In this document: piece after piece, positions 13,166-29,178 of the stretch | Numbering within the stretch: position 1 is the first letter of the stretch | How the letters are laid out: the number at the start of each line of letters is the position of its first letter | Origin: a virus | Taxonomy: Duplodnaviria; Caudoviricetes | Strand: one strand, 5' to 3' | DNA length: 38,684 nucleotides | Virus record (IMG/VR): IMGVR_UViG_3300029145_000013 | Location: 1-38,684 of that record | The notes under the pieces: model-generated | What the model was told of the DNA's origin: nothing | The model's input: the letters and a program-made list of their open reading frames with translations, nothing else | Databases searched by the model: none | Made by a program: the position numbers and the translations under genes

Positions 13166-14541
13166 TGGCAGAAGTAACGCTGCCCGATGGAACTATAGTT
13201 AAAAACGTACCAGAAGGGATGAGCCCGGAAGACGTGCAACGCGGATTAGAAATTTACCGCAACATGCACAACCCTTTCGCGGGAGCTAGCAAGCCTAACC
13301 ATCCTACTATGTCCGATTTGCAGTCATTTGGGAGAGGAGCTGCTAACAGGGTTGCAAACGCAGCAGCCAATATTCCTGACTTTGTTGCGAACATTGGTGC
13401 AAGAGCAATCACTCCCGCAGTAAGAAGCTTTCAGCCGGGACAGTACGGATCCGAAAAACCTCTAAACACCGCCTGGGCTTTCAACGCTCCTGCATTAGGA
13501 CAAGACTTCGTTCCCGGCCCAGATGGGCACGATTTGCTTGGGGGGGTTCAAAGGGGTGGTGAGCTAGCCTCTGCATTAGTAAACAGAGATTTTGGCCACT
13601 TCTCACAAGACCCCGCACAAGATCAAAGAGAACTAACCCAGAAAGCAATGGAAGAAAACCCTATGGCCTATTTCCTTGGCCAGGTTGGTGGGGATGTTCT
13701 TACGCTTACAACTCTTAGAGCGCCAATCTCAAATAGCAGAGGCAATCAAGAACTAATTTCCAACCAAATTATTGGAGGCGCTCGATCTCCAGGCCCAACA
13801 AATTTTCGGGCGGCAGCAAGACAGGCGGCGGGGGTAAGCAATCAAGAAGTTAGCTTGGCGTCTGGTGTTTCTGATGCGCTCCGATCAATGACCAATACAA
13901 CTAACTGGAGATGGTTAAGAAATAGAGCGGGTAGAGCTGGAGAAACGGGAATGGAGGCTTTAACACTCTCTGCTTTAAACGGAGAGGCGGACCCAATTGA
14001 GGCTTTTGGTTTTGCGGCAGGAATGCAAATGGCCGGAAGTGGTTTTCTTGGCACTTCCGGAAGTTTGTTATCCGGAAACATAAAGGATGCTGGTGTGAAG
14101 CTAGGAATTGCAGCACTAGCAACTGGTTCGATTTTTCAGGTTGCTAAAGAACTCACTGCTGGCGGTCGCGATTTCATTCTCGAATCAATGGAATCTGGTT
14201 TTGGAAAGGTTGCTTTATTCCTTGCGACTGGTGCGCTAGCTGGCGCAACAGGAATGGGAAGAGTAACCCCCATGAATGCGCAACCAGAACGGTTTTCAGC
14301 AAGAGTTGCAGACGCCATTTCATCTCTCCCTCGAGCGGCAACAATTTCGCTTATCACTGAAGGTATGGATGATCCAGCGACTAACGCAGTCATTAGAAAG
14401 CTAGCCGTGAATCCGAGTTATTTCGGCACAAACGCCACACGCAGATTGGAGAGGGCCTACCTAAACGGAAACTTTAGAAATGAACTTGAGTCGCTCATGT
14501 CGGTAGAAGAGTTCAGGAAAAAATTTGAGGCTATTCAGTGA
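13165..14541 (+). CDS. DNA ejection/internal virion protein
   Basis: VTLPDGTIVKNVPEGMS N-terminus, Gly/Ala-rich hydrophobic helices. Confidence 0.65.
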   Translation: MAEVTLPDGTIVKNVPEGMSPEDVQRGLEIYRNMHNPFAGASKPNHPTMSDLQSFGRGAANRVANAAANIPDFVANIGARAITPAVRSFQPGQYGSEKPLNTAWAFNAPALGQDFVPGPDGHDLLGGVQRGGELASALVNRDFGHFSQDPAQDQRELTQKAMEENPMAYFLGQVGGDVLTLTTLRAPISNSRGNQELISNQIIGGARSPGPTNFRAAARQAAGVSNQEVSLASGVSDALRSMTNTTNWRWLRNRAGRAGETGMEALTLSALNGEADPIEAFGFAAGMQMAGSGFLGTSGSLLSGNIKDAGVKLGIAALATGSIFQVAKELTAGGRDFILESMESGFGKVALFLATGALAGATGMGRVTPMNAQPERFSARVADAISSLPRAATISLITEGMDDPATNAVIRKLAVNPSYFGTNATRRLERAYLNGNFRNELESLMSVEEFRKKFEAIQ

Positions 14542-17596: not shown

Positions 17597-17934
17597 GCCG
17601 GGTTCAAATATACGGCAAATGGATTTGTCTGTAGGATCAAACGTAGGAATTGGTTCGAAATGTGAGACACACATCACACTTCTTATAGGTTTTGACTCGA
17701 ATATCGGATCAAGACCGTCAATTTAATTAGTAGCTAGTTTGACGGGTGTAGGAGATAGGCGTACAAAGAAAGGTGGCTCCCCGACCCTTCGTTATTCCCC
17801 TATAGCTAAATAAAGGCGATGGGAAGGGGGCCGACCTAAATGTATCGAAATGTGTCTAAATAAGGAAGGGAAAGTGACCATAGGACAGTTGATTTATATC
17901 AATATTATGGAGCATCAAAAACTCTATGTTGTGA

Positions 17935-18160
17935 TGTGGGAGATATGCGGGACTTTCATACACCTCAATACACAGGAATGCGGGTTATGGGCTAGTGGGC
18001 ATTCCTTCTCATCTAATTAAATCAAACACTTAACACCTCTACCCCTACCTACGAACTAGGGGGTCGCACGTTCGAATCGTGCCGGGTGCGCCATATCTTC
18101 TAGCCTGTAGCGATGTCCCTTAATTTCACTAAGGCTAATGCGGGAGATTTGCGGGAGATT
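17935..18160 (+). repeat. Integrase arm-type direct repeats flanking attP
   Basis: TGTGGGAGATA 17935, TGCGGGACTTT 17946, TGCGGGTTATG 17979, TGCGGGAGATT at 18139 and 18150. Confidence 0.7.
18049..18093 (+). other. attP: attP core: 3' half of tRNA-Arg(ACG)
   Basis: CT-ACG-AA anticodon loop, T arm GCACG-TTCGAAT-CGTGC, acceptor end GGGTGCG-CCA; 6 nt from int stop; no 5' half. Confidence 0.9.
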
Positions 18161-19242
18161 GTAAGCAAATTAACCGCATCTAACAGTTCCATTAGTCCAG
18201 CTTCAGAGTAATGTGTAGTCATGCTCTTGTGGCTGTGACCAAGGAGCTGCGCTCTCGTCTCTTCAGATACGCCGAGCATCCTAAGACGAGTTGCAAACGT
18301 GTGGCGGAGGTTGTGGACACCTTTAACGTACTTCTCTGTTAATGGTAGCCCAGCCTTCTTCCACGCATTTCGCCAGCCTGTAGTGTTCATTCTTGCGACA
18401 GGGCGATACTTAACCACCTTATCTCTAGAAGTCCTTCTCTCAGAGACAAAAACATATCTGTGATGCTTCCCTCTCATTGAGTCCACTACTGACTTAGCGG
18501 TGTCATTTAAGACCACGTACTTATCTTCCATTTTCTCTGACGTTTTTTTCCTCGCTGCGCCAGGTATGATGAATATCCTTCCTTTTAGATCCGGGTCTGT
18601 AGAATCGCACTCCCACGCCCACTCTAGTTGACAAACCTCCTGCTCCCTGCATCCGGTGTTTACCTTAAACAGAGACATTCGTTCCAACAGGGCTGGTAGT
18701 TCCTTGGTTAGCCTCTCTTGTTCATCCCAATCCAAGGGATAGGCTTCTGCGGCATCTTCCGTAGACTCATACTTAATAATAGGAGCCGTTTCTAAGAAAG
18801 ATAATCCAGAGCTAAACCGCCAATACTTAGCACAGCGATTCAAGACTCTAGACACCATCTCCAATGAAAGATTTATAGTTTTGCCTTTTACTCCTTCTTT
18901 GTGGCGTTTCTCAATAAACGGCTCTAAAGGGCCACGGTGTACTCTCTCCAAAGGTAAGTGACCTATATAAGGCATTACCATCTTCAAGTGGTAGATCGCA
19001 TCTCCTATAGAGCGTTTGTGTTGGTTTTCCTTCAAGTATTTTGCGGCAGCTTCACTAAACAAGATCCTGGGTCTTACCTCTCCAGCGAGTTCGGCCTTAA
19101 ACCGTTTCACTCTACTATTGAAGTAATCTAGCGCCTCGTCGTAGTTATCTGTTCCGCAACTTTCTCGAAGTCTAGACCCTCGTATAACTTTGTCGATGGT
19201 CCACGTTTGGCCTCTTTTATGGAGACCACTTGGTTTGGGCAT
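18100..19242 (-). CDS. int: Tyrosine integrase
   Basis: TGCR, HNLRH, LLGH, TTHY catalytic motifs; ATG at 19242 with SD GAGGAGG. Confidence 0.95.
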   Translation of the reverse strand: MPKPSGLHKRGQTWTIDKVIRGSRLRESCGTDNYDEALDYFNSRVKRFKAELAGEVRPRILFSEAAAKYLKENQHKRSIGDAIYHLKMVMPYIGHLPLERVHRGPLEPFIEKRHKEGVKGKTINLSLEMVSRVLNRCAKYWRFSSGLSFLETAPIIKYESTEDAAEAYPLDWDEQERLTKELPALLERMSLFKVNTGCREQEVCQLEWAWECDSTDPDLKGRIFIIPGAARKKTSEKMEDKYVVLNDTAKSVVDSMRGKHHRYVFVSERRTSRDKVVKYRPVARMNTTGWRNAWKKAGLPLTEKYVKGVHNLRHTFATRLRMLGVSEETRAQLLGHSHKSMTTHYSEAGLMELLDAVNLLTISRKSPALALVKLRDIATG

Positions 19243-19442
19243 TGTTCCTCCTCGGAACACCCACTAGCCGCCTCCATGCTATCTGCAACGCGGTCTAACT
19301 GTCTACGGGTGTACCTAAGTTTGTGAGGGCATTCCTCGGTGTGTACGGGTGTTAAAAAAGGTCTAGCGTGTCTGCTCCACTCTCTACCATTCATGGCGAG
19401 ATAACGCATAGCCTCTTTGCGTGTGTAAAATCTTTGGTCCAT
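19128..19442 (-). CDS. xis: Putative excisionase
   Basis: RFYTRKEAMRYLAM winged-HTH start, LRYTRRQLD; overlaps the start of int. Confidence 0.7.
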   Translation of the reverse strand: MDQRFYTRKEAMRYLAMNGREWSRHARPFLTPVHTEECPHKLRYTRRQLDRVADSMEAASGCSEEEQCPNQVVSIKEAKRGPSTKLYEGLDFEKVAEQITTTRR

Positions 19443-20252
19443 CTATTCCGGACTCTCTGGTAATGGAGAGCTTTCTCCTATGGCTGCTTTGATTTCATCT
19501 ACTGCTTCTGCGGCCCCTTTAATCCAAATAGAATTGGCGCATTGATCCAACCGCACCTCTAAACATTGCTTTGCTAGCGCAGCACACTCCCTGCTAATCA
19601 CAATGCCCTCTCTTTGCTGTAGGGCAGAGATAGCTTGACTAAGTAACTCCTTAACAGGCATGTTTTTAAATCCAGGATTACCAATTACGAATTGCATTTT
19701 CTCTATCAGCTTACTATCTGCCCCAGTGTTGGGGTGGTGCTGCATAAGATTTTTAGCTGCATCACAGTCACACAATTCGCTACTCTCTTGAATCTCACCG
19801 GCTATTACTGAGTGGCCGTGATGGATATAACCATCGTCATTGCATTTAGCGCATTTAGGCTGTTGCGGGAGTGTGGAAAGGGCTGAACGAATTGTCTTTA
19901 TGTGGCCTAGTGTCAAAACCGCTTGATCTAGGGTGCTAGTAGCCATTCCGTTGTATTTTTCCTCAACAATTTTTCGGGCTTCTTCCAGCTCACCCCGATC
20001 TGGTAGCTGGGCGTCCGGGTCTTGCCCGGTTAGGTGTAAATACATACGCCATGCCCCGATAGCTGCGGTGCTTGCCTTCACTCCTTTTTTGAAAGTGCCA
20101 GCGCCGATTTTTATATCAGTTGTTAGCTTTCCATCATCATCAATAAAAGCGTACCGCTTCTCATCATTATTCATAACTTCCCCTTCTGGGCAATAAGGAC
20201 AGCTTGATAGGAACTCCACAGCGTGAAGGTCGCAGAATTTTGTATCACTCAT
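19443..20252 (-). CDS. Hypothetical mosaic protein with CxxC motifs
   Basis: 269-aa ORF in the early-left operon. Confidence 0.6.
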   Translation of the reverse strand: MSDTKFCDLHAVEFLSSCPYCPEGEVMNNDEKRYAFIDDDGKLTTDIKIGAGTFKKGVKASTAAIGAWRMYLHLTGQDPDAQLPDRGELEEARKIVEEKYNGMATSTLDQAVLTLGHIKTIRSALSTLPQQPKCAKCNDDGYIHHGHSVIAGEIQESSELCDCDAAKNLMQHHPNTGADSKLIEKMQFVIGNPGFKNMPVKELLSQAISALQQREGIVISRECAALAKQCLEVRLDQCANSIWIKGAAEAVDEIKAAIGESSPLPESPE

Positions 20253-20544
20253 TACTGGAGTCCGTTGTATTCAGTAGCTCTCTCTCAGATGAATCAAGCA
20301 TTTCTTTTAGCTCCTTTCTGAGCGGCCTTTCTTCAGCAAATCGTTTTACACCATGAACGAGCTTTCTTAGCGAGTGTTCCAGCGCCTCGTTTCTTTGTTG
20401 GAGAGTGGTGATTGTGTTTGCCGCCTCTCTGAAATCATTTTCGAGAAGCCCCATATCATCGGCAGCGTCAAATGAGTAATCGTTCTCATCCATCTCATCA
20501 GCCGCATTGCTTAATCTTTTAACTAGGTTTTCTGTCTCAGCCAT
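20245..20544 (-). CDS. Hypothetical coiled-coil protein
   Basis: SD AGGAG inside a boundary repeat. Confidence 0.65.
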   Translation of the reverse strand: MAETENLVKRLSNAADEMDENDYSFDAADDMGLLENDFREAANTITTLQQRNEALEHSLRKLVHGVKRFAEERPLRKELKEMLDSSERELLNTTDSSNE

Positions 20545-20553
20545 TACTCACTC

Positions 20554-20736
20554 CTACTCTCCGTTTCCCAGCTTAAAAACTTCATATCCATACGCATTAC
20601 AAAAATCATTGCTCTCGGCTGCTGCTATAGCGTCTCCCTGCGTTTCAAAGAACTGAATATCCCCTTCATCATTCGCTACCATTGGGATAGCTGGTATGTG
20701 TTCTGCTGGGTGATTAGCCATTACAAAATATTCCAT
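20554..20736 (-). CDS. Hypothetical protein
   Basis: 60-aa ORF bounded by direct repeats. Confidence 0.65.
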   Translation of the reverse strand: MEYFVMANHPAEHIPAIPMVANDEGDIQFFETQGDAIAAAESNDFCNAYGYEVFKLGNGE

Positions 20737-20757
20737 TACTCACTCCTACGGGTAAAC

Positions 20758-21120
20758 CTAATAATTCTTTCCGCCATCTTGTTCACGATTGGCTTTTTTG
20801 TGGTCTGCTCTTTGCTTGTTGTATTCTAATTTTTCAACTACTGCGCCAGCTAAATCCATATCGTAAGCACCACCAAGATCAAAAATTCTGATCAAAGCAT
20901 CTGCCAATTCGACCTCGCTCATAGGTCTATGGGGCAAATGATCGTCTTGCAAATTTTTCCTATCACCCTCCATGGCCTCACTGATTTCGCTATGTATCAA
21001 CGTCAAGCATCTCGGGAAGGTTTCCCATGTTTTCTCTCTATCCCACCAGCCCGCTTCCTTGGCGGCTCCGTGGCACTTTATCTGGGCAAGCATAATGGCT
21101 TCTCTTAATGGTTCGCTCAT
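20758..21120 (-). CDS. MazG-like NTP pyrophosphohydrolase
   Basis: LIHSEISEAMEG..EVELADALIRIFD..EKLEYNKQR. Confidence 0.88.
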   Translation of the reverse strand: MSEPLREAIMLAQIKCHGAAKEAGWWDREKTWETFPRCLTLIHSEISEAMEGDRKNLQDDHLPHRPMSEVELADALIRIFDLGGAYDMDLAGAVVEKLEYNKQRADHKKANREQDGGKNY

Positions 21121-21143
21121 CTTTCACTCCTACGGGCACAAGG

Positions 21144-21251
21144 TCAGCCCCATAAAACAATTACCGCGATTAAAAGTATGGCTCCAAACAGCATCCCACC
21201 GAACAAACCGCTTTGAGGGTTCCAAAATTTCCACCAAGGAACATTGCTCAT
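21144..21251 (-). CDS. 35-aa single-pass membrane peptide
   Basis: MSNVPWWKFWNPQSGLFGGMLFGAILLIAVIVLWG; lies exactly between two 22-nt repeats; not in ORF track. Confidence 0.65.
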   Translation of the reverse strand: MSNVPWWKFWNPQSGLFGGMLFGAILLIAVIVLWG

Positions 21252-21275
21252 CTTTCACTCCTACGGGTATGGGGG

Positions 21276-21473
21276 TTAGTCATTGGGGACTTCTCTCATA
21301 ACATCTTCAGGCTTGGCATCAACAAACCACCTTCTTATTTCGCCGTCTACGCGACCGCCCGAAAACTCTGGAACAAATCCCTCAACTTCTAGCTGGAGCA
21401 CAACAAGAGGACTGCGCAAAAATCTATTTTGGACTCTGTGCCTTCTATTGCCCGTATACTTTGCTCTCATCAT
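21276..21473 (-). CDS. Hypothetical protein
   Basis: TG.RRHR..LVVLQLE..W.DA..ED pattern seen in phage accessory genes; SD GAGG. Confidence 0.65.
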   Translation of the reverse strand: MMRAKYTGNRRHRVQNRFLRSPLVVLQLEVEGFVPEFSGGRVDGEIRRWFVDAKPEDVMREVPND

Positions 21474-21506
21474 TTCCTCTCTTTCCGGTAGTAAGTATTA
21501 GCGGAA

Positions 21507-21695
21507 TTACTGGCCCTCATAAATCAAGGCATCAGCTCTTCCTGTAAATACGAGCCAAGCGCAGTAACACCGATGTCGGAAAGAGGAATAACCAAGAGGT
21601 CTGGCTTCAACCCATCTACCGTCCTTGAGACCGGCTTTTTCTTGACCTGCACTAGCAATCATTTGGTCAGCATGTCTTATACCTGGATATTTCAT
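21507..21695 (-). CDS. Hypothetical protein
   Basis: GRWVEARP..AWLVFTGRADAL pattern of a common small phage protein. Confidence 0.7.
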   Translation of the reverse strand: MKYPGIRHADQMIASAGQEKAGLKDGRWVEARPLGYSSFRHRCYCAWLVFTGRADALIYEGQ

Positions 21696-21842
21696 CTTCT
21701 CTTCCTCTTATCTAATAGGGCGGTAGAGCGCATGGCTTGTCTTGATACCTGTACGCTGTCCACAGGCAGGAACTTCTCGCTTTCCACGCCGCTCCACCAT
21801 TGATCGTTAATCTCCTGTTACCGATAAACCTGGTTACCGGAA

Positions 21843-22676
21843 TTAAGCGGCTACATCCCCGAAAGGTTCGCAAGATTCACTACAGCCGCCGCTCTCATCA
21901 TTAAACATGCGTAATTGCACTTCACCAGTAGTGGCAATCACTTGGTATTCATTAAATAAGTCTTCCGTCGATCTGTTCCCCCTAAAAAATACTCGCTTGT
22001 TCCCGTCAACATTGTATCCCGCAAGGCCGTACAGGCTCTCCATCTGCCGGGGAAATTCAAAAATGTGCGGCATTGTCTCGATTAGCATCATGTGTTTTCT
22101 GATAGACTTCTTCCAGCACCAGGAGCAGTTGCCCTCATGCTCTAGCAAGTTCAAATTGAATGGCATGGACTCCCAGAAGTCATTTACATGGGCCTTGTCG
22201 ATGCCCCAATCGTTGAGCGGATAAATGAATTTCGGGTCGCCGCCAATCCTGCGCGGCTCATCCGATCTAATTCCAATTGCCATTACACAATCAGACCACC
22301 CAATTGAGTCTGCGTAGCTTTTTATTGGGTTGGCTTTTAGTTCCCTGGTGCAGTGCGGGTAGGCATGATTAGGAATTCCGTATTTCTTTATAACCTCTTC
22401 AAATGGTTCACCCTTCCTGCTGGCGTTTTCCCACTCAACCACTCTATGCGTTGATCCTTTGCGCTTTCCATGGTGTACCTCCGCCTCAACCCAGACAACG
22501 CCAAGACCAAAATATTCATCTACTCTACGAACGAAATTCAGAGTCTCTGGGCGCTCCTGCCCAGTATTTGCAAATACAAATTTGAGATTACGGTCAGCCC
22601 AGCGCTCTTTAATCAAGTGCGCCATGTATGCAGAGGTTTTGCCACCACTGAAGCTGATTAGTATTTTTTCACTCAT
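21843..22676 (-). CDS. PAPS reductase-like / adenine nucleotide alpha-hydrolase family protein
   Basis: ISFSGGKTS PP-loop, VFANTGQE, CTRELK, IGIRSDE, GNCSWCWKK. Confidence 0.88.
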   Translation of the reverse strand: MSEKILISFSGGKTSAYMAHLIKERWADRNLKFVFANTGQERPETLNFVRRVDEYFGLGVVWVEAEVHHGKRKGSTHRVVEWENASRKGEPFEEVIKKYGIPNHAYPHCTRELKANPIKSYADSIGWSDCVMAIGIRSDEPRRIGGDPKFIYPLNDWGIDKAHVNDFWESMPFNLNLLEHEGNCSWCWKKSIRKHMMLIETMPHIFEFPRQMESLYGLAGYNVDGNKRVFFRGNRSTEDLFNEYQVIATTGEVQLRMFNDESGGCSESCEPFGDVAA

Positions 22677-22706
22677 ATCTATCTCCGCTATCCCGATTAC
22701 GGGAAA

Positions 22707-23006
22707 TTAAATCTCTGAAATCTGAACAGTTACGCAGTACTCAGAGCCATCCTTGTGTCTCACGTTGAAGCTGTTTGTGTTCCTCTCAAAGTCTTGAGTT
22801 AGGCCACTGCTTATCTCTCCCAGCTCGCCGTTTTCATCTTCAAGTATCAACGCTGCAATTATCTTCTCGTCGCTTTTAAGGCTCTCCTGCTGCGCTCTGA
22901 GCAATTTGTCAATGGCGGGGGTGGGCCTAGCCTCCGATGAAGATTTATAGGGCGTTTGCAAGATGTTAGAAAAATCGTTTTTACTCATAATCTGGTTTGC
23001 CTTCAT
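22707..23006 (-). CDS. Hypothetical protein
   Basis: ORF between dif-like sites; start uncertain. Confidence 0.55.
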   Translation of the reverse strand: MKANQIMSKNDFSNILQTPYKSSSEARPTPAIDKLLRAQQESLKSDEKIIAALILEDENGELGEISSGLTQDFERNTNSFNVRHKDGSEYCVTVQISEI

Positions 23007-23081
23007 TCAAATTTGTAAACAATAGCTATACTTTTCTCGCAACTCTTAAACCCTGTTTCCGGTAAGAAGCCATACTGGCAA

Positions 23082-23438
23082 TTAAGCTAATTTCTTTGGA
23101 ACTGCTATTGGCATCCACTTGTTGACCAATTGGGAGGGCAAGACAACGTGAGTCAGAGCGGGCTTATCATCGGCAGGGCAGAACAGCTCCCATACCGGGC
23201 CAGAACCGCACAAATCGTCTTTATGAACATCCCCCAATTCCGTCGTATACCTTGCCATGCCAAGCGGTTTTTCTAATTCATCACACCAAACCCACACTGC
23301 GGGACCGTCGATTGTTGGTAAAAGCACTTCGCAATCAATCCATGTTGTGTATTCTCTTAGCCGTTTCAGCTCTGCTTGCATAAACTCCATATCTTCAGCG
23401 GCATCTAAAGCAACGTTCCGCAATTTCTCAGCACTCAT
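23082..23438 (-). CDS. DUF551-like hypothetical protein
   Basis: WIDCEVLLP...VNKWMPI pattern; ATG at 23438 directly after a dif-like site. Confidence 0.65.
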   Translation of the reverse strand: MSAEKLRNVALDAAEDMEFMQAELKRLREYTTWIDCEVLLPTIDGPAVWVWCDELEKPLGMARYTTELGDVHKDDLCGSGPVWELFCPADDKPALTHVVLPSQLVNKWMPIAVPKKLA

Positions 23439-23478
23439 TTTTTCACCTGTTTTCCGGTAACAATAAGTACCGGATAAG

Positions 23479-23862
23479 TTAGAGTTCAAACCACTTGGTT
23501 TTTGATTCTCTTTCATAGTCAAAACCAAGGCGTCCAGCACCTGTCATGGCTACGAATCCATTCATTTGCTCGGGCTGCCCGAAATCTGATATAGGCTTAG
23601 GGTGCTCGTAAGAGTGGTGAGAAAATCCTCTATCAATGTCCGGCTTGATTTCGTTTGAACGATCAACCTGATTAACGCGATCAATATAGCCTTCTAAACG
23701 CGCTTTGCTTTGTTCAAGGTAGGCTACGGCTTCCTTGAGGCAACTAACCTTCTCAGCGTAACTGCCTAGCTTTATCTGCAAATCAGACACTTGTGATTTG
23801 AAGTTCTCTATTTTCTCATTAGCATCTGCCAACTCTTCTTCTAGTACCGCCTTAGTAGCCAT
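23479..23862 (-). CDS. Hypothetical coiled-coil protein
   Basis: SD AGGAG, heptad pattern. Confidence 0.65.
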   Translation of the reverse strand: MATKAVLEEELADANEKIENFKSQVSDLQIKLGSYAEKVSCLKEAVAYLEQSKARLEGYIDRVNQVDRSNEIKPDIDRGFSHHSYEHPKPISDFGQPEQMNGFVAMTGAGRLGFDYERESKTKWFEL

Positions 23863-23871
23863 CTCAATCTC

Positions 23872-24105
23872 CTAAACAAAAACAAACATTGCTAAACCGT
23901 CTTTCACATAAACCCCATCTAATAACCTAATGGGCCTTCTTAATTCTCCGCATACTGCGTGTATCTCTTCGTAACCAGCTTCGAACATGTCTATGAATGT
24001 CCTGCACTTTCTTTTGCAGAGTCTCTTTCTGTAAAACTCAGTAGGGTGGAAGCGAAGCTCAAGGTGCTCTTTCATAATCCACCACCACAAACTCTTCTTT
24101 ATCAA
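23872..24105 (-). CDS. Hypothetical protein
   Basis: Fills operon gap; start probably ATG near 24075. Confidence 0.5.
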   Translation of the reverse strand: MIKKSLWWWIMKEHLELRFHPTEFYRKRLCKRKCRTFIDMFEAGYEEIHAVCGELRRPIRLLDGVYVKDGLAMFVFV

Positions 24106-24811
24106 TCCTCTGTCTCAACACTCCCCAAAAGGACTCATCACTTCCTAAGCGTGAAGCTCTTGGGATGTATAGATTCCCGTGGTTGTCCTCAACAGGATCT
24201 TTAATTGTGTAAAGCTCATCCAGACAACGTAGATCGTCATAGTGGATGTCTTGAATTGAGAGTCTTAGGGCGTACATAAGGGCTCTAATATCTCTGGTGT
24301 GTCTACAGCCGACAGCGTGGCCGACTTCATGTAGTTTGGTGTGAAAATCAGCATCAGTTCTTAACTGAATATCCGCTTCGATAATCTCATCACCCCTCCA
24401 CCAAATATGAGCCCTACCCAGGGTTGAGTTAGTAACAACATCTGTTAGCTCTTCTACAGCTAGAGTTAAACCAAAAGGGACGTAAAGTAATTGATTGGAA
24501 AAATCATCATCACAAAAGACATGGTTTAACCCATTGAAGGAATCTTGACCGCCTTGTGTTCCTGAGATGAATCTAGTTTTGAGGTTGTCTGTTAAGCCCT
24601 CGATAGTCTCAAAGGCTTCTACTATCGAATCAGGATCAGGGCAAGAAGAGTCAATGTAGTACCTAAGCTCATCGTGCCAGTAAGGAGAGCCTTCGTAGGT
24701 TTCATAAGCAAAGACTTTCTCTATATATATTCCGGCGAATCCCAGGACTAATAGAATTAACCACTGGGGATGCCAGAATAAGTTTTTAAGAAACTTTCCT
24801 ACTTTTTCCAC
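24059..24811 (-). CDS. Exported metzincin (matrixin/M10-like) zinc metallopeptidase
   Basis: N-terminal hydrophobic segment ending VFA, EADI, HEVGHAVGCRH zinc motif, ALMY Met-turn. Confidence 0.85.
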   Translation of the reverse strand: MEKVGKFLKNLFWHPQWLILLVLGFAGIYIEKVFAYETYEGSPYWHDELRYYIDSSCPDPDSIVEAFETIEGLTDNLKTRFISGTQGGQDSFNGLNHVFCDDDFSNQLLYVPFGLTLAVEELTDVVTNSTLGRAHIWWRGDEIIEADIQLRTDADFHTKLHEVGHAVGCRHTRDIRALMYALRLSIQDIHYDDLRCLDELYTIKDPVEDNHGNLYIPRASRLGSDESFWGVLRQRIDKEEFVVVDYERAP

Positions 24812-24903
24812 TCCTGCCCCCTGTTACTAATTCATAACCTCGTTTATAAGATTCGTAAGTCCCTTGCTTCTTTAGCTTCTTCCACTCTGCTTTGGTGGGT
24901 GTT

Positions 24904-25329
24904 TTAGGCTGCATTTTTGGCTTCTCCGTGTTTCGCGTGCCACTGCTTATGACAAGCAGCGCATAACCACCTAACTTCTAAGGGCTTCTCATAATCGTCG
25001 TGATGGGCCTCTATGTGCCCCGGCTGACAACATTCTGAGCATTCACTGGGCTTAACGATTTTTCCTGACCGAACCGCGTTGCTTACCATGCTGTGAGCCT
25101 TGTACTTTTTGGGAAACTTAGCCCGATAGTCAGTTACGTATTGTTGGTCTTGCCTATTTCCCCTAGCTCTGTCGTATGCTCGATAGTGTTCAATGTTTGC
25201 AACACGGTTTTTTCTCGTGTCTTTCTTTGCGCACTCTTTGCATTTGTTCAGTCGACCATCTCCCATCCGGGTGTGTCTGTAGAACTCATTAAGCTCCTTG
25301 AGCTTTTCGCACTTGAAACACTTCTTCAT
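24904..25329 (-). CDS. Zn-finger HNH-like endonuclease
   Basis: KKCFKC..CKEC and CSEC..EAHHDDY..VRWLCAACHKQWH. Confidence 0.78.
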   Translation of the reverse strand: MKKCFKCEKLKELNEFYRHTRMGDGRLNKCKECAKKDTRKNRVANIEHYRAYDRARGNRQDQQYVTDYRAKFPKKYKAHSMVSNAVRSGKIVKPSECSECCQPGHIEAHHDDYEKPLEVRWLCAACHKQWHAKHGEAKNAA

Positions 25330-25331
25330 AG

Positions 25332-25763
25332 CTAAAAAGGAATTGAATCGTCGTCAAAATTGTCGAATTGCTGTGGTGCTGCGCCTTGTTGTGCTGCGGG
25401 TTGGCTTGCTGGCTGTGCATTTCCACCACGGCTATCAAGCATCTGCATTTCACTAGCAACAATCTCTGTGGTGTATCTTTCTACGCCGTCTTGCTCCCAC
25501 TTGCGGGTTTGCAATTTGCCTTCCACATAAACCTTTGAGCCTTTCTTTAAATACTGCTCAACGATTTCAGCTAAGCGGTTGAAGAAAACTACTCTGTGCC
25601 ACTCGGTCTTCTCCTGCTGCTCTCCAGTGTTCTTGTCTTTCCAAGAGTCGCTAGTAGCTAATGAGATATTTGCTATGGCTTTGCCATCTGGTGTGTATCT
25701 AACATCCGGATCATTACCCAGATTTCCAACGATAATTACTTTATTTACGCCTTTGCTAGCCAT
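25332..25763 (-). CDS. ssb: Single-stranded DNA-binding protein
   Basis: [31 protein letters not shown], acidic DDDSIPF tail. Confidence 0.97.
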
Positions 25764-26501
25764 CTATGCTGCTTCTCCGTGTAGTGTTTGTGAAAATTCA
25801 TTCTGCATTGCATTTCGTTCTTGGGTTGTGAAAATTCCCCCCTTAGAAGGAGCAAGCCAGAGAGCTTGTTGGACTCCCTGACCTAACTCCCTCCAAGCCT
25901 CCGCCGCCGAAGCAAAATCTTGATTAGCTATGCCTTCCTTGATTGCGATTACTGACCGCATGTGTTCTGAGAGAATTTTTTGTCTTTCAACAAGAGAGGG
26001 GATTGGGCCTTCGTCACAAATCAGCCAAGAGTCATACTCTTTATTTAGGGTCACTATTGTTTCAGGGGAGAAGTGCCGTTTACCCAAACTAACTAACGGG
26101 TATCTTCCCCAATCTCTGACTAGATACCTGCCAACTCCCCAACCAACCGCAGCACGTTTAAAAGAATCTGAATACGCGCCTTTATCACCTTGCATTCCGG
26201 TGTCACCAGCGCCGTTCTCTTTCCAAATCCATTCACCATCAATCTTGATACCAATAGAACAGGTCATTTTTCTGTCACCACGTTCTACGCGGTGGGATCT
26301 TTGCCAATTACCAGGGCCGCATACTTCGTCTAGCCTCTCTGCTACTGCCTTAGCTTTTAGATAGGCGAGGGGCCTACCTACAGGAGAATCACCCCAAGCT
26401 AGTTCTGGTCTACCGCCGTTGCCCTTTTTGACGTTGGTATCCCCAACACGCCAGTTAATGTCTCTGTGGTGAAAGGGTGCGCTTAGTTTGTCTAAATCCA
26501 C
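25764..26501 (-). CDS. Rad52/Sak-like single-strand annealing protein
   Basis: LSAPF..INWRV, RLDEVCGPGNW, KGAYSDSFKRAAVGWGVGRYL; GTG at 26501 with SD AGGAGG; adjacent to ssb. Confidence 0.9.
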   Translation of the reverse strand: MDLDKLSAPFHHRDINWRVGDTNVKKGNGGRPELAWGDSPVGRPLAYLKAKAVAERLDEVCGPGNWQRSHRVERGDRKMTCSIGIKIDGEWIWKENGAGDTGMQGDKGAYSDSFKRAAVGWGVGRYLVRDWGRYPLVSLGKRHFSPETIVTLNKEYDSWLICDEGPIPSLVERQKILSEHMRSVIAIKEGIANQDFASAAEAWRELGQGVQQALWLAPSKGGIFTTQERNAMQNEFSQTLHGEAA

Positions 26502-26652
26502 CGATCTCCCTCCTAATTTCCTGTAGTTCCTTATCAAGTTCTCTTGCAATCCCTACCCAGCATTCCCACCATTCAGGGCTACCTTTGGGATGAGGGTTAC
26601 TGTCAAAAAGAGGGGTTTCAGAGATACCCATCCAATCTCTCCATTTCTTCAT
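26455..26652 (-). CDS. Hypothetical protein
   Basis: NPHPKGSPEW motif; start uncertain. Confidence 0.4.
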   Translation of the reverse strand: MKKWRDWMGISETPLFDSNPHPKGSPEWWECWVGIARELDKELQEIRREIGGFRQTKRTLSPQRH

Positions 26653-27525: not shown

Positions 27526-27762
27526 TTACCATCCGTAGCCGTAGCCGTAGCCGTTGCCGTAGCCGTAGCCGTAGCCGTTGCCGTTGCCGTTGCCGTTGCC
27601 GTAGCCGTAGCCGTCGCCGTTGCCGTCGCCGTAGCCGTTGCCGTAGCCGTTGCCGTTGCCGTAGCCGTTGCCGTAGCCGTTGCCGTTGCCGTCGCCGTAG
27701 CCGTAGCCGTAGCCGTTGCCGTTTAAGCGAATGGCGTATGCCTCTAGCTCATTCATTACCAC
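27526..27762 (-). CDS. Gly-X (GY/GN/GD) repeat protein
   Basis: About 32 Gly-X dipeptides; coupled to the upstream gene. Confidence 0.75.
   Translation of the reverse strand: MVMNELEAYAIRLNGNGYGYGYGDGNGNGYGNGYGNGNGYGNGYGDGNGDGYGYGNGNGNGNGYGYGYGNGYGYGYGW
27533..27723 (-). repeat. 6-bp tandem repeat GGC(T/A/G)AC, about 32 units
   Basis: Directly visible. Confidence 0.95.
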
Positions 27763-28892: not shown

Positions 28893-28977
28893 GCGCTAAT
28901 TATGCCTCAACTTGTTTTCCATTGAACGAAACAATCTGTGTTGACAATAGCAACACAACATGTTTTAATTCTGCTTC
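28893..28977. promoter_or_regulatory. OR region: PR, PRM and three operators
   Basis: PR TTGACA(28941)-17-TTTAAT(28964); PRM -10 CATAAT 6 nt before cI ATG; operators at 28905, 28929, 28953 (24-bp spacing). Confidence 0.8.
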
Positions 28978-29178
28978 ATGGATTTAGTTGAAGATGTAAT
29001 CAGCGCGCTAGGCGGCGTGAAGGCCGCGCAGCAACGATATGGGTATTCAAGCCCGATGGGTGTCTATGTGTGGAGAAGTAGAGGTCTCCCCCAAAAGCAC
29101 CTAATTGATATACATCTAGCTACAGGCATTCCCCTGGAGCGACTTCAACCCCAAGGGGCAGCAACCCCTAAGAATTAA
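28978..29178 (+). CDS. cro: Cro-like protein
   Basis: VISALGGVKAAQQRYG...GVYVWRSRGLP; 66 aa, divergent from cI. Confidence 0.85.
   Translation: MDLVEDVISALGGVKAAQQRYGYSSPMGVYVWRSRGLPQKHLIDIHLATGIPLERLQPQGAATPKN

What the first reader, a model, noticed from the sequence alone, without database searches (positions are those of the whole stretch)
21481..23477. Array of early genes separated by 11-6-11 dif-like inverted repeats: a possible phage gene-cassette system
Seen (+ strand): CTTTCCGGTAG-TAAGTA-TTAGCGGAATT (21481), GTTACCGATAA-ACCTGG-TTACCGGAATT (21817), degenerate ATCTCCGCTAT-CCCGA-TTACGGGAAATT (22681), GTTTCCGGTAA-GAAGCC-ATACTGGCAAT (23055), TTTTCCGGTAA-CAATAA-GTACCGGATAA (23450). Each abuts or overlaps the TAA stop of the upstream gene and most lead straight into the next SD. 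Arms are conserved, spacer length is fixed in four of five, spacer sequence varies, and there are no U tails. Established: TAA-N6-TTA in 28 bp is the geometry of Xer/dif and pdif tyrosine-recombinase sites, though these arms are symmetric rather than XerC+XerD. Inference: recombinase-driven cassette capture or shuffling analogous to pdif modules or integrons. Alternatives are RNA processing hairpins or operators.
Basis: partly seen in the sequence, partly recalled or inferred. Interest (0 to 1): 0.75.

Follow-up and report, generated by a model that had tools for sequence, protein, structure and literature searches.

The report
Host dif-site mimics between phage genes
Five short palindromes between the early genes of this temperate phage are imperfect copies of the site that its likely bacterial host family is predicted to use, with a single enzyme, to unlink joined chromosomes, so they likely mark joints where that host enzyme built, and may still exchange, gene modules in the phage.

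Summary
The five sites are real, sit at successive gene junctions and far exceed chance. They match 18-19 of 22 arm bases of a chromosomal site, ATTTCCGGTAA-TCTTTA-TTACCGGAAAT. That site lies opposite dnaA in 3 of 3 large replicons checked. It often lies beside a tyrosine recombinase 55% identical to Coxiella XerL, in genomes with no XerC or XerD over cut-off. The phage's attP matches tRNA-Arg(ACG) of the same family, Pseudohongiellaceae, so the phage integrase has its own target and the enzyme that fits these sites is host XerL. Host islands hold similar degenerate pairs around one or two genes. The architecture is that of Acinetobacter dif modules, but in a phage operon and with one symmetric recombinase. 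Swapping by XerL is not shown. One other phage contig shares 21255-22709 almost exactly, but the block ends at the 5-bp-spacer site and at a different junction repeat, which fits Erf-type recombination as well. No second five-site array was found. RNA hairpins are not supported. New variant of a known kind; interest 0.62.

The parts
21481..21508 (.). dif-like site 1 (11-6-11, spacer TAAGTA); overlaps stop of the 62-aa gene, followed on the minus strand by SD-ATG of the 65-aa gene
   Evidence: (19 of 22)
21817..21844 (.). dif-like site 2 (spacer ACCTGG); overlaps stop of the PAPS-reductase-like gene
   Evidence: (19 of 22)
22681..22707 (.). dif-like site 3, 5-bp spacer CCCGA, likely inactive; a block shared with another phage ends at 22709
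   Evidence: (18 of 22)
23055..23082 (.). dif-like site 4 (spacer GAAGCC)
   Evidence: 18 of 22
23450..23477 (.). dif-like site 5 (spacer CAATAA)
   Evidence: 18 of 22
23082..23438 (-). module between sites 5 and 4: gene of about 118 aa (start after SD inferred; the frame is also open through site 5), no family; DUF551-like lead only
22707..23006 (-). module between sites 4 and 3: 99-aa gene of no known family
21843..22676 (-). module between sites 3 and 2: 277-aa PAPS-reductase-domain gene (phrog_424, PF01507)
21507..21800 (-). module between sites 2 and 1: 30-aa ORF (21708-21800) and 62-aa gene (21507-21695, phrog_21988)
21276..21473 (-). 65-aa gene directly after site 1
20548..21267 (-). 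second junction repeat, four copies of GTAGGAGTGA (20548, 20740, 21124, 21255) before start codons; possibly decayed half-sites, possibly only a shared SD; the shared block's other end is at 21255
   Evidence: (D9)
21255..22709 (.). 1455-base block shared (2 other letters, no gaps) with a 36,289-base contig of run X5 and a 9,601-base contig of run X7
18049..18094 (+). attP core, 46 bases identical to the 3' half of tRNA-Arg(ACG) of G207; separates the Int target from the five sites and points to the host family
18100..19260 (-). phage integrase (phrog_1), the only tyrosine recombinase among the 61 ORFs scanned
25764..26549 (-). Erf-like annealing protein (phrog_1097), the enzyme of the main rival explanation

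Best explanation
The five palindromes are imperfect copies of the predicted chromosomal dif site of the phage's likely host family (Pseudohongiellaceae), and they likely act as joints of a dif-module-like array recognised by the host's single XerL-type recombinase. Shown: the sequence match, the junction positions, the host site's place opposite dnaA and beside the recombinase, and the attP match. Inferred mechanism: two XerL subunits bind the two near-identical arms. Because each site has its own spacer, neighbouring sites would not recombine with each other, so modules are not deleted. A site would recombine only with a spacer-matched site on another molecule (a co-resident phage, prophage or host island), giving a cointegrate; a second crossover at another matched site, or by Erf, would replace or add the genes between. 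Stop codons and ribosome-binding sites built into the arm edges let an incoming promoterless gene be read from the early leftward promoter. Site 3 has lost a spacer base and is likely dead.
For: Match to host consensus 18-19 of 22, unique in the window. Host site: 120 loci returned, about 200 estimated, 97 of 120 with one spacer; a 400-aa tyrosine recombinase in 49 loci, 55.4% identical over 98% to the Coxiella plasmid recombinase whose catalytic Tyr matches Y389 of XerL in PMC9765430. Site at 46.6%, 52.5% and 50.0% of the replicon from dnaA in G001, G002, G003 (my arithmetic). Match with up to 3 mismatches in 235 of 251 family genomes. Host link: 34-base attP core exact in 2 of 251 order genomes, both with the exact dif and the recombinase, and 2 of the 3 one-mismatch genomes likewise; 0 of 150 other class genomes match the 44-base core; Int homologues in 7 of 251 and capsid homologues in 6 of 251 family genomes. 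Arm positions C5, C6, T9, A10 are intact in 10 of 10 window arms (P 9e-5 under random placement, about 0.02 after allowing for my choice of 4 of 10 positions) and are also the least changed in 21 extra host sites (Spearman 0.60, p 0.053). 15 of 16 non-canonical host sites at 18 of 22 or better are intergenic, and pairs flank one GNAT gene (L223), two low-GC genes (L224) or a Gp49/HTH pair (L157). Window spacers share at most 3 of 6 bases with each other in either orientation; 3 of 4 have a 5-of-6 match among the 21 host spacers (p about 0.01). Spacer-matched two-step exchange is the model for Acinetobacter dif modules (PMC13141974, PMC11705084; passages).
Against: No binding or recombination was tested. 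The one observed swap ends at site 3, and the partner contig has no gap there, so it carries the same 5-bp spacer, which a tyrosine recombinase is unlikely to use (established knowledge). Its other end is at a different repeat. Both ends are also gene boundaries, where phage mosaic joints fall anyway. No other array of this size was found: 21 of 21 other phage records have exactly one site, the 6 Int-bearing and 6 capsid-bearing family loci scanned have none at 17 or more, and the G494 prophage has two clear sites and one weak one. Cargo GC (43-48%) equals the genome's 46%, so the modules do not look freshly foreign. A 45%-identical homologue of the PAPS-reductase gene has no site at 16 or more. 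One contig in run X4 has C to T at 23455, a conserved arm position. The host is inferred, not observed.
Confidence: 0.55

Rival explanations
1. The sites derive from XerL dif sites but now serve only as short shared boundary sequences. Gene blocks move by Erf-mediated homologous recombination between phages at these and at the neighbouring GTAGGAGTGA repeats; XerL no longer acts on them.
For: The phage encodes Erf. The only observed swap ends at a 5-bp-spacer site and at the second repeat. Four more junctions next door carry that repeat without a full palindrome. Every site has 3-4 mismatches to the host consensus.
Against: Mismatches avoid the four inner positions and 4 of 5 sites keep the 6-bp spacing. 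Spacers are diverse, which lowers rather than raises homology between sites. Comparable degenerate pairs flank modules in host islands outside phages.
Confidence: 0.27
2. The sites are protein-binding elements without strand exchange: XerL or a phage protein binds them as operators or roadblocks that tune read-through of the early operon.
For: Symmetric arms with a free spacer are also the form of dimer operators (established knowledge). The sites cover ribosome-binding sites. Spacers match neither each other nor the host dif (at most 4 of 6).
Against: No copy lies in the divergent control region near 28900-29000 or at any other place in the window. The best match is a chromosomal site beside a recombinase and opposite dnaA, not a regulon of promoters. 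Host extra copies often lie between convergent or downstream gene ends.
Confidence: 0.1
3. The sites are RNA hairpins for processing, stability or translational coupling.
For: They lie between stop codon and SD in one operon; site 5 folds better than shuffles (z -2.5).
Against: 4 of 5 fold no better than shuffles (z +0.45 to -1.03). Each has 2-4 unpaired arm positions and only 1 compensatory change in all five. Loop length is fixed and loop sequence free.
Confidence: 0.04
4. The phage's own integrase acts on the sites.
For: Int lies 2.2 kb away in the same operon.
Against: Int has a separate attP at a tRNA-Arg. Its 46-51% homologues in the family sit beside tRNA-Arg genes in 4 of 4 loci scanned for tRNAs and have no such sites.
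Confidence: 0.04

Closest known systems
dif (pdif/xrs) modules of Acinetobacter Rep_3/OrfX plasmids (PMC13141974, PMC11705084; passages read)
   Same: Several 11-6-11 dif-like sites on one mobile replicon; accessory genes between them; neighbouring spacers differ; host recombinase, none encoded by the element; exchange proposed through spacer-matched sites.
   Different: Phage, not plasmid; symmetric arms for one recombinase instead of XerC plus XerD, so no C/D alternation; all genes co-oriented and promoterless inside one operon with stops and SD built into the arm edges; no Rep_3/OrfX backbone; no experiment yet.
dif/XerL of Legionella pneumophila and Coxiella burnetii (PMC9765430; parts 1-5 of 7 read, figures not seen)
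   Same: Single recombinase of about 400 aa (55% identical to the Coxiella protein), perfect-dyad arms, site near the terminus, no XerC/XerD.
   Different: The paper describes XerL as restricted to Legionellales; here close homologues occur in 67 of 251 sampled genomes of another order. Arm sequence differs from the Legionella att AAGTCTGATTATTTTGATAATC (PMC5071653, passage). dif is often next to the gene.
IMEX elements such as LME-1 (PMC9765430, PMC5071653)
   Same: Phage-borne mimic of a XerL-type dif.
   Different: IMEXs carry one mimic with the host spacer and integrate through it. This phage has five sites with non-host spacers and its own Int and tRNA attP.
Boundary or linker repeats of mosaic phages, and T4-type PeSL cassettes
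   Same: Short repeats at junctions of variable early genes where blocks are exchanged.
   Different: Those are direct repeats or promoter stem-loops used by homologous recombination; here the repeat is a fixed-geometry palindrome matching a host recombinase site.
Integron cassette arrays (attC; established knowledge)
   Same: Promoterless co-oriented genes, stop codon in one arm, SD after the other.
   Different: No integron integrase or attI; sites are 27-28 bp, fold poorly as single strands and lack attC length and extrahelical bases.

Membership tests
XerL-type dif site (host site) | About 28-30 bp, two perfect inverted arms around a short centre | tested here: met
   11-6-11, 97 of 120 with one spacer
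XerL-type dif site (host site) | Intergenic, variable neighbours, opposite the origin | tested here: met
   46.6%, 52.5%, 50.0% from dnaA in 3 of 3 large replicons; GC skew itself not computed
XerL-type dif site (host site) | XerL orthologue present, XerC and XerD absent | tested here: met
   (55% to Coxiella XerL by best hit; no tree built); 0 of 5 over cut-off for XerC and 0 of 5 for XerD; MAGs may be incomplete
XerL-type dif site (host site) | Recombination catalysed by the single recombinase; filamentation on loss | not testable with these tools
   needs bench work
dif modules (pdif) | Several dif-like sites flanking accessory genes on a mobile element | tested here: met
dif modules (pdif) | XerC-arm plus XerD-arm asymmetry with alternating C and D modules | tested here: not met
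   both arms fit one consensus; likely host has no XerC/XerD over cut-off
dif modules (pdif) | Rep_3/OrfX plasmid backbone | tested here: not met
   complete temperate phage gene set; shared block has no match among 72,556 plasmids
dif modules (pdif) | Module replacement between relatives with crossovers in matched spacers | tested here: inconclusive
   one shared block, one end at site 3, other end at another repeat; partner's flanking letters not seen
IMEX (LME-1 type) | One dif mimic with the host spacer used for integration, no own integrase needed | tested here: not met
   spacers match host dif at 2-4 of 6; own Int and tRNA attP
Integron cassette array | IntI with attI, and attC sites folding as bottom-strand hairpins | tested here: not met
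   Int scores 21.8 bits against a cut-off of 265 for TIGR02249; poor folding of the sense strand; no IntI among 61 ORFs

The most novel reading that the evidence does not exclude
A tailed temperate phage carries a spacer-addressed gene-cassette array inside its early operon that is run by the host's single XerL recombinase and trades modules with dif modules in the host's genomic islands: a dif-module system in a phage, and one built on a one-enzyme Xer system, with XerL/dif being the standard dimer-resolution system of a whole aquatic gammaproteobacterial family whose phages routinely carry its site.
Probability: 0.42. Interest if true: 0.82.

Novelty: new variant of a known kind. Interest (0 to 1): 0.62.

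Why it matters
dif modules are known as movers of resistance genes on Acinetobacter plasmids. A version in a phage operon, driven by one symmetric host recombinase, would show that this gene-exchange logic is general and would give a site-specific route for the mosaic early regions of phages, usually put down to homologous or illegitimate recombination. It is directly testable with one protein and 28-bp oligonucleotides. Two side results stand on their own: a predicted XerL/dif system in Pseudohongiellaceae and other lineages outside Legionellales, and single near-perfect copies of the site near the terminase genes of many unrelated phages, which could serve as a host marker. I found none of this in print with searches (listings only, open-access library); earlier unchecked notes of this scan already mention XerL outside Legionellales.

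Tried and rejected
GenBank phages: only short 67-75% matches for 17800-25400; capsid and 62-aa gene hits are distant. IMG/VR relatives by Int (2 loci), Erf (5), PAPS-reductase gene (1) and the 118-aa gene (0) carry no sites. Pattern scans for other arrays: one search was mis-registered by me and could not match the window, so its zero is uninformative; one search gave 1 hit with no site at 17 or more; the metagenome pattern fits only the register of site 4 and gave 1 hit in an unrelated low-GC contig; the second repeat gave 0 IMG/VR hits. A DNA search of 251 family genomes returned only ssb among the listed matches; 208 rows were not listed. Runs X3 and X4 show no joint at any of the five sites; contigs drop rare variants, so this shows nothing about circles or deletions; the X4 joint 23034-23825 is not at a site and has only 27 letters on one side. 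The letters flanking the shared block in the partner contig were not seen, so crossover inside the spacer versus outside the arm stays open. The Coxiella plasmid dif was not identified in the 2.4 kb fetched, and the paper's dif alignments are figures that I could not see; its supplements held no site sequence. Atlas searches for two cargo proteins gave leads under 0.9 only. No PDB sequence hit for the recombinase. My first idea that the host motif was a LexA-type operator was dropped: one conserved spacer, one main copy per genome, no fixed downstream gene. The idea that single phage copies are cos or pac sites was not tested but is less likely given identity to the host site.

Full report
Observation. 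The window is a whole 38.7-kb IMG/VR virus record with terminase, portal, capsid, integrase, Erf, SSB and lysis genes in a lambdoid layout. The five sites are at the stated places, all at successive junctions of minus-strand genes between ssb/erf and int. A half-site PWM gives 26.3-28.1 for the four 11-6-11 sites and 19.4 for the 11-5-11 site; the next hit is 15.1 and 20 shuffles peak at 7.3-16.2; leave-one-out recovers each site. The stop codon of the upstream gene overlaps the outer arm by 1-2 bases at four sites and is 1 base away at the fifth; three sites lead directly to SD-ATG.

What the motif is. An exact scan of GTDB species genomes for the palindromic core returned 120 loci (about 200 estimated); most of the 80 titles shown are Pseudohongiella, Pseudohongiellaceae, OM182 or unclassified Gammaproteobacteria. 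97 of 120 have the same spacer, giving ATTTCCGGTAA-TCTTTA-TTACCGGAAAT. Neighbours vary, but a gene of about 405 aa lies in 49 loci, often right behind the site (only 80 loci had full flanks). It is a tyrosine recombinase far below the XerC, XerD, XerA and XerS cut-offs. Its best plasmid hit is the Coxiella burnetii plasmid recombinase, 55.4% over 98% of its length, whose catalytic Tyr falls at 389 when counted from the Met at residue 8, as for XerL in PMC9765430 (parts 1-5 of 7 read). That paper shows that XerL alone recombines a dif with perfect 10-12-bp arms. In G001, G002 and G003 the site is 46.6%, 52.5% and 50.0% of the replicon away from dnaA (my arithmetic). No XerC (0 of 5) or XerD (0 of 5) passes cut-off. 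235 of 251 genomes of the family have a match. Across the order, 67 of 251 genomes have the recombinase. I picked by eye 31 genomes with a symmetric, AT-spacer site among the rows listed (28 rows unlisted); all 31 are among those 67, and arms vary by lineage (CCGG, CCTG, CCGA).

The window's sites against it. They match 19, 19, 18, 18 and 18 of 22 arm bases and are the only places at 17 or more; 60 shuffles gave none at 18 or more. The 18 mismatches avoid C5, C6, T9 and A10 in all ten arms (P 9e-5, about 0.02 after allowing for the choice of positions), and the profile resembles that of 21 extra host sites (Spearman 0.60, p 0.053). Only one change is compensatory, and 4 of 5 fold no better than shuffled RNA. 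This is the pattern of a protein-bound DNA site.

Host. Bases 18049-18094 are identical to the 3' half of tRNA-Arg(ACG) of G207, and 18058-18096 to that of G002. The 34-base core is exact in 2 of 251 order genomes (G002, which was the centre of the search and not a random draw, and G207) and has one mismatch in 3; four of these five carry the exact dif and the recombinase. None of 150 other class genomes matches the 44-base core within 2 mismatches. Int homologues of 46-51% occur in 7 of 251 family genomes, one in a prophage that also shares the repressor and Cro-like genes at 52-55%; capsid homologues occur in 6 of 251. The host is therefore likely a Pseudohongiellaceae bacterium with the cognate recombinase, and Int has a target of its own.

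Are they cassette joints? For: in ten host genomes chosen for many matches, 15 of 16 non-canonical sites at 18 of 22 or better are intergenic (four of 30 loci fell below 18 and were not counted). Pairs flank a single GNAT gene whose stop touches the arm (L223), two low-GC genes (L224) and a Gp49/HTH pair with a second HTH gene (L157). A prophage in G494 that shares capsid and portal with the window, integrated at a tRNA-Arg by its own Int, holds one near-perfect internal site and a second one leading into SD-ATG after the primase-helicase. The window's spacers share at most 3 of 6 bases with each other, and 3 of 4 have a 5-of-6 match among 21 host spacers (p about 0.01; a post hoc test). In Acinetobacter, recombination needs identical or nearly identical spacers and single modules are replaced through cointegrates (PMC13141974, PMC11705084; passages).

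Against or ambiguous: one 36,289-base contig in run X5 (and a 9,601-base contig in X7, same study P2, not the source study) shares 21255-22709 with 2 other letters and no gaps, and only 22-39-base patches further down the operon. One end is 2 bases beyond site 3, so a different gene precedes the same site. But site 3 has the 5-bp spacer in both phages, and the other end is at the last base of a different junction repeat, GTAGGAGTGA, present four times next door. Both ends are gene boundaries. This fits Erf-mediated exchange at short shared sequences at least as well as XerL crossover. The partner's flanking letters were not seen. No second large array turned up: 21 of 21 other phage records with a near-perfect site have exactly one, and family prophage loci have none, though my degenerate scans were narrow (see Tried and rejected). 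Cargo GC is like the genome's. One contig of run X4 changes a conserved arm C at 23455.

Mechanism. Most likely the host XerL-type enzyme binds the arms and exchanges strands only between spacer-matched sites on different molecules; distinct spacers protect the array from self-deletion; stops and SD at the arm edges make each promoterless module expressible from the early leftward promoter. Identity with the host site is shown by sequence (I put it at about 0.9 that the sites derive from it); binding, catalysis and module traffic are inferred (0.55 for the whole). The main rival is that they are dif-derived relics now used by Erf (0.27).

Comparison and novelty. It works like Acinetobacter dif modules but fails two membership features (XerC/XerD asymmetry, plasmid backbone); it is neither an IMEX nor an integron. 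Searches (listings) showed no dif-module array in a phage and no XerL outside Legionellales; the library lacks most subscription papers, and bioRxiv supplements were closed. PMC2731167 (passages) lists large gammaproteobacterial genomes with no known dif/Xer system, a gap this system may fill. Earlier unchecked notes of this scan describe XerL/dif in a marine bacterium and spacer-coded joints in SPbeta-like phages; they are leads, not support. Verdict: a real feature, a new variant of a known kind, interest 0.62.

Noticed in passing
L003-L024 (IMG/VR): 22 viral loci carry one near-perfect copy of the site with an AT-rich, non-host spacer; in 17 of 22 it lies within about 2.2 kb of a large terminase gene (clusters; three representatives confirmed). 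Possibly used to resolve phage genome dimers; a possible host marker.
   Followed up: partly
G494:C1 about 2,575,000-2,607,000 (L228, L219): Prophage sharing capsid (43%) and portal with the window, integrated at tRNA-Arg(TCG), with two internal sites (L219 6517, 12710) and a weak third near 13216.
   Followed up: partly
L223 13448-14036; L224 7514-10009; L156 17052 and L157 6527, 8217: dif-module-like pairs in host genomic islands around a GNAT gene, two low-GC unknown genes, and a Gp49/HTH toxin-antitoxin-like pair.
   Followed up: partly
order-wide sample: XerL-like recombinase in 67 of 251 genomes, with lineage-specific arm variants (CCGG, CCTG, CCGA), often within a few kb of the gene.
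   Followed up: partly
L027 5580 and 6001: A 5-bp-spacer copy 420 bases from the intact chromosomal site; looks like an inactivated integration scar, and parallels window site 3.
   Followed up: no
host extra sites: Spacer TACCTA recurs in 4 of 21 extra host sites and in viral locus L004; window site 1 differs from it by one base.
   Followed up: partly
window 20548-21267: Four copies of a second junction repeat; in the 11-6-11 register three keep a 7-of-11 left arm with the SD as spacer, and two 22-base copies flank a 35-aa ORF.
   Followed up: partly
window 27526-27762: 78-aa ORF made almost wholly of Gly-Asn/Tyr/Asp repeats (6-base unit).
   Followed up: no
window 24059-24811: 250-aa gene with a matrixin-type metallopeptidase domain (PF00413) in the early operon.
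   Followed up: no
L025 4866-8161: Genes that look like a diversity-generating retroelement (reverse transcriptase, small accessory gene, target) in a phage with a related integrase; label from recalled motifs, not scanned.
   Followed up: no
plasmid collection: 1897 plasmid records encode more distant relatives (under 60%) of the recombinase, many in Klebsiella, Burkholderia and Pseudomonas.
   Followed up: no
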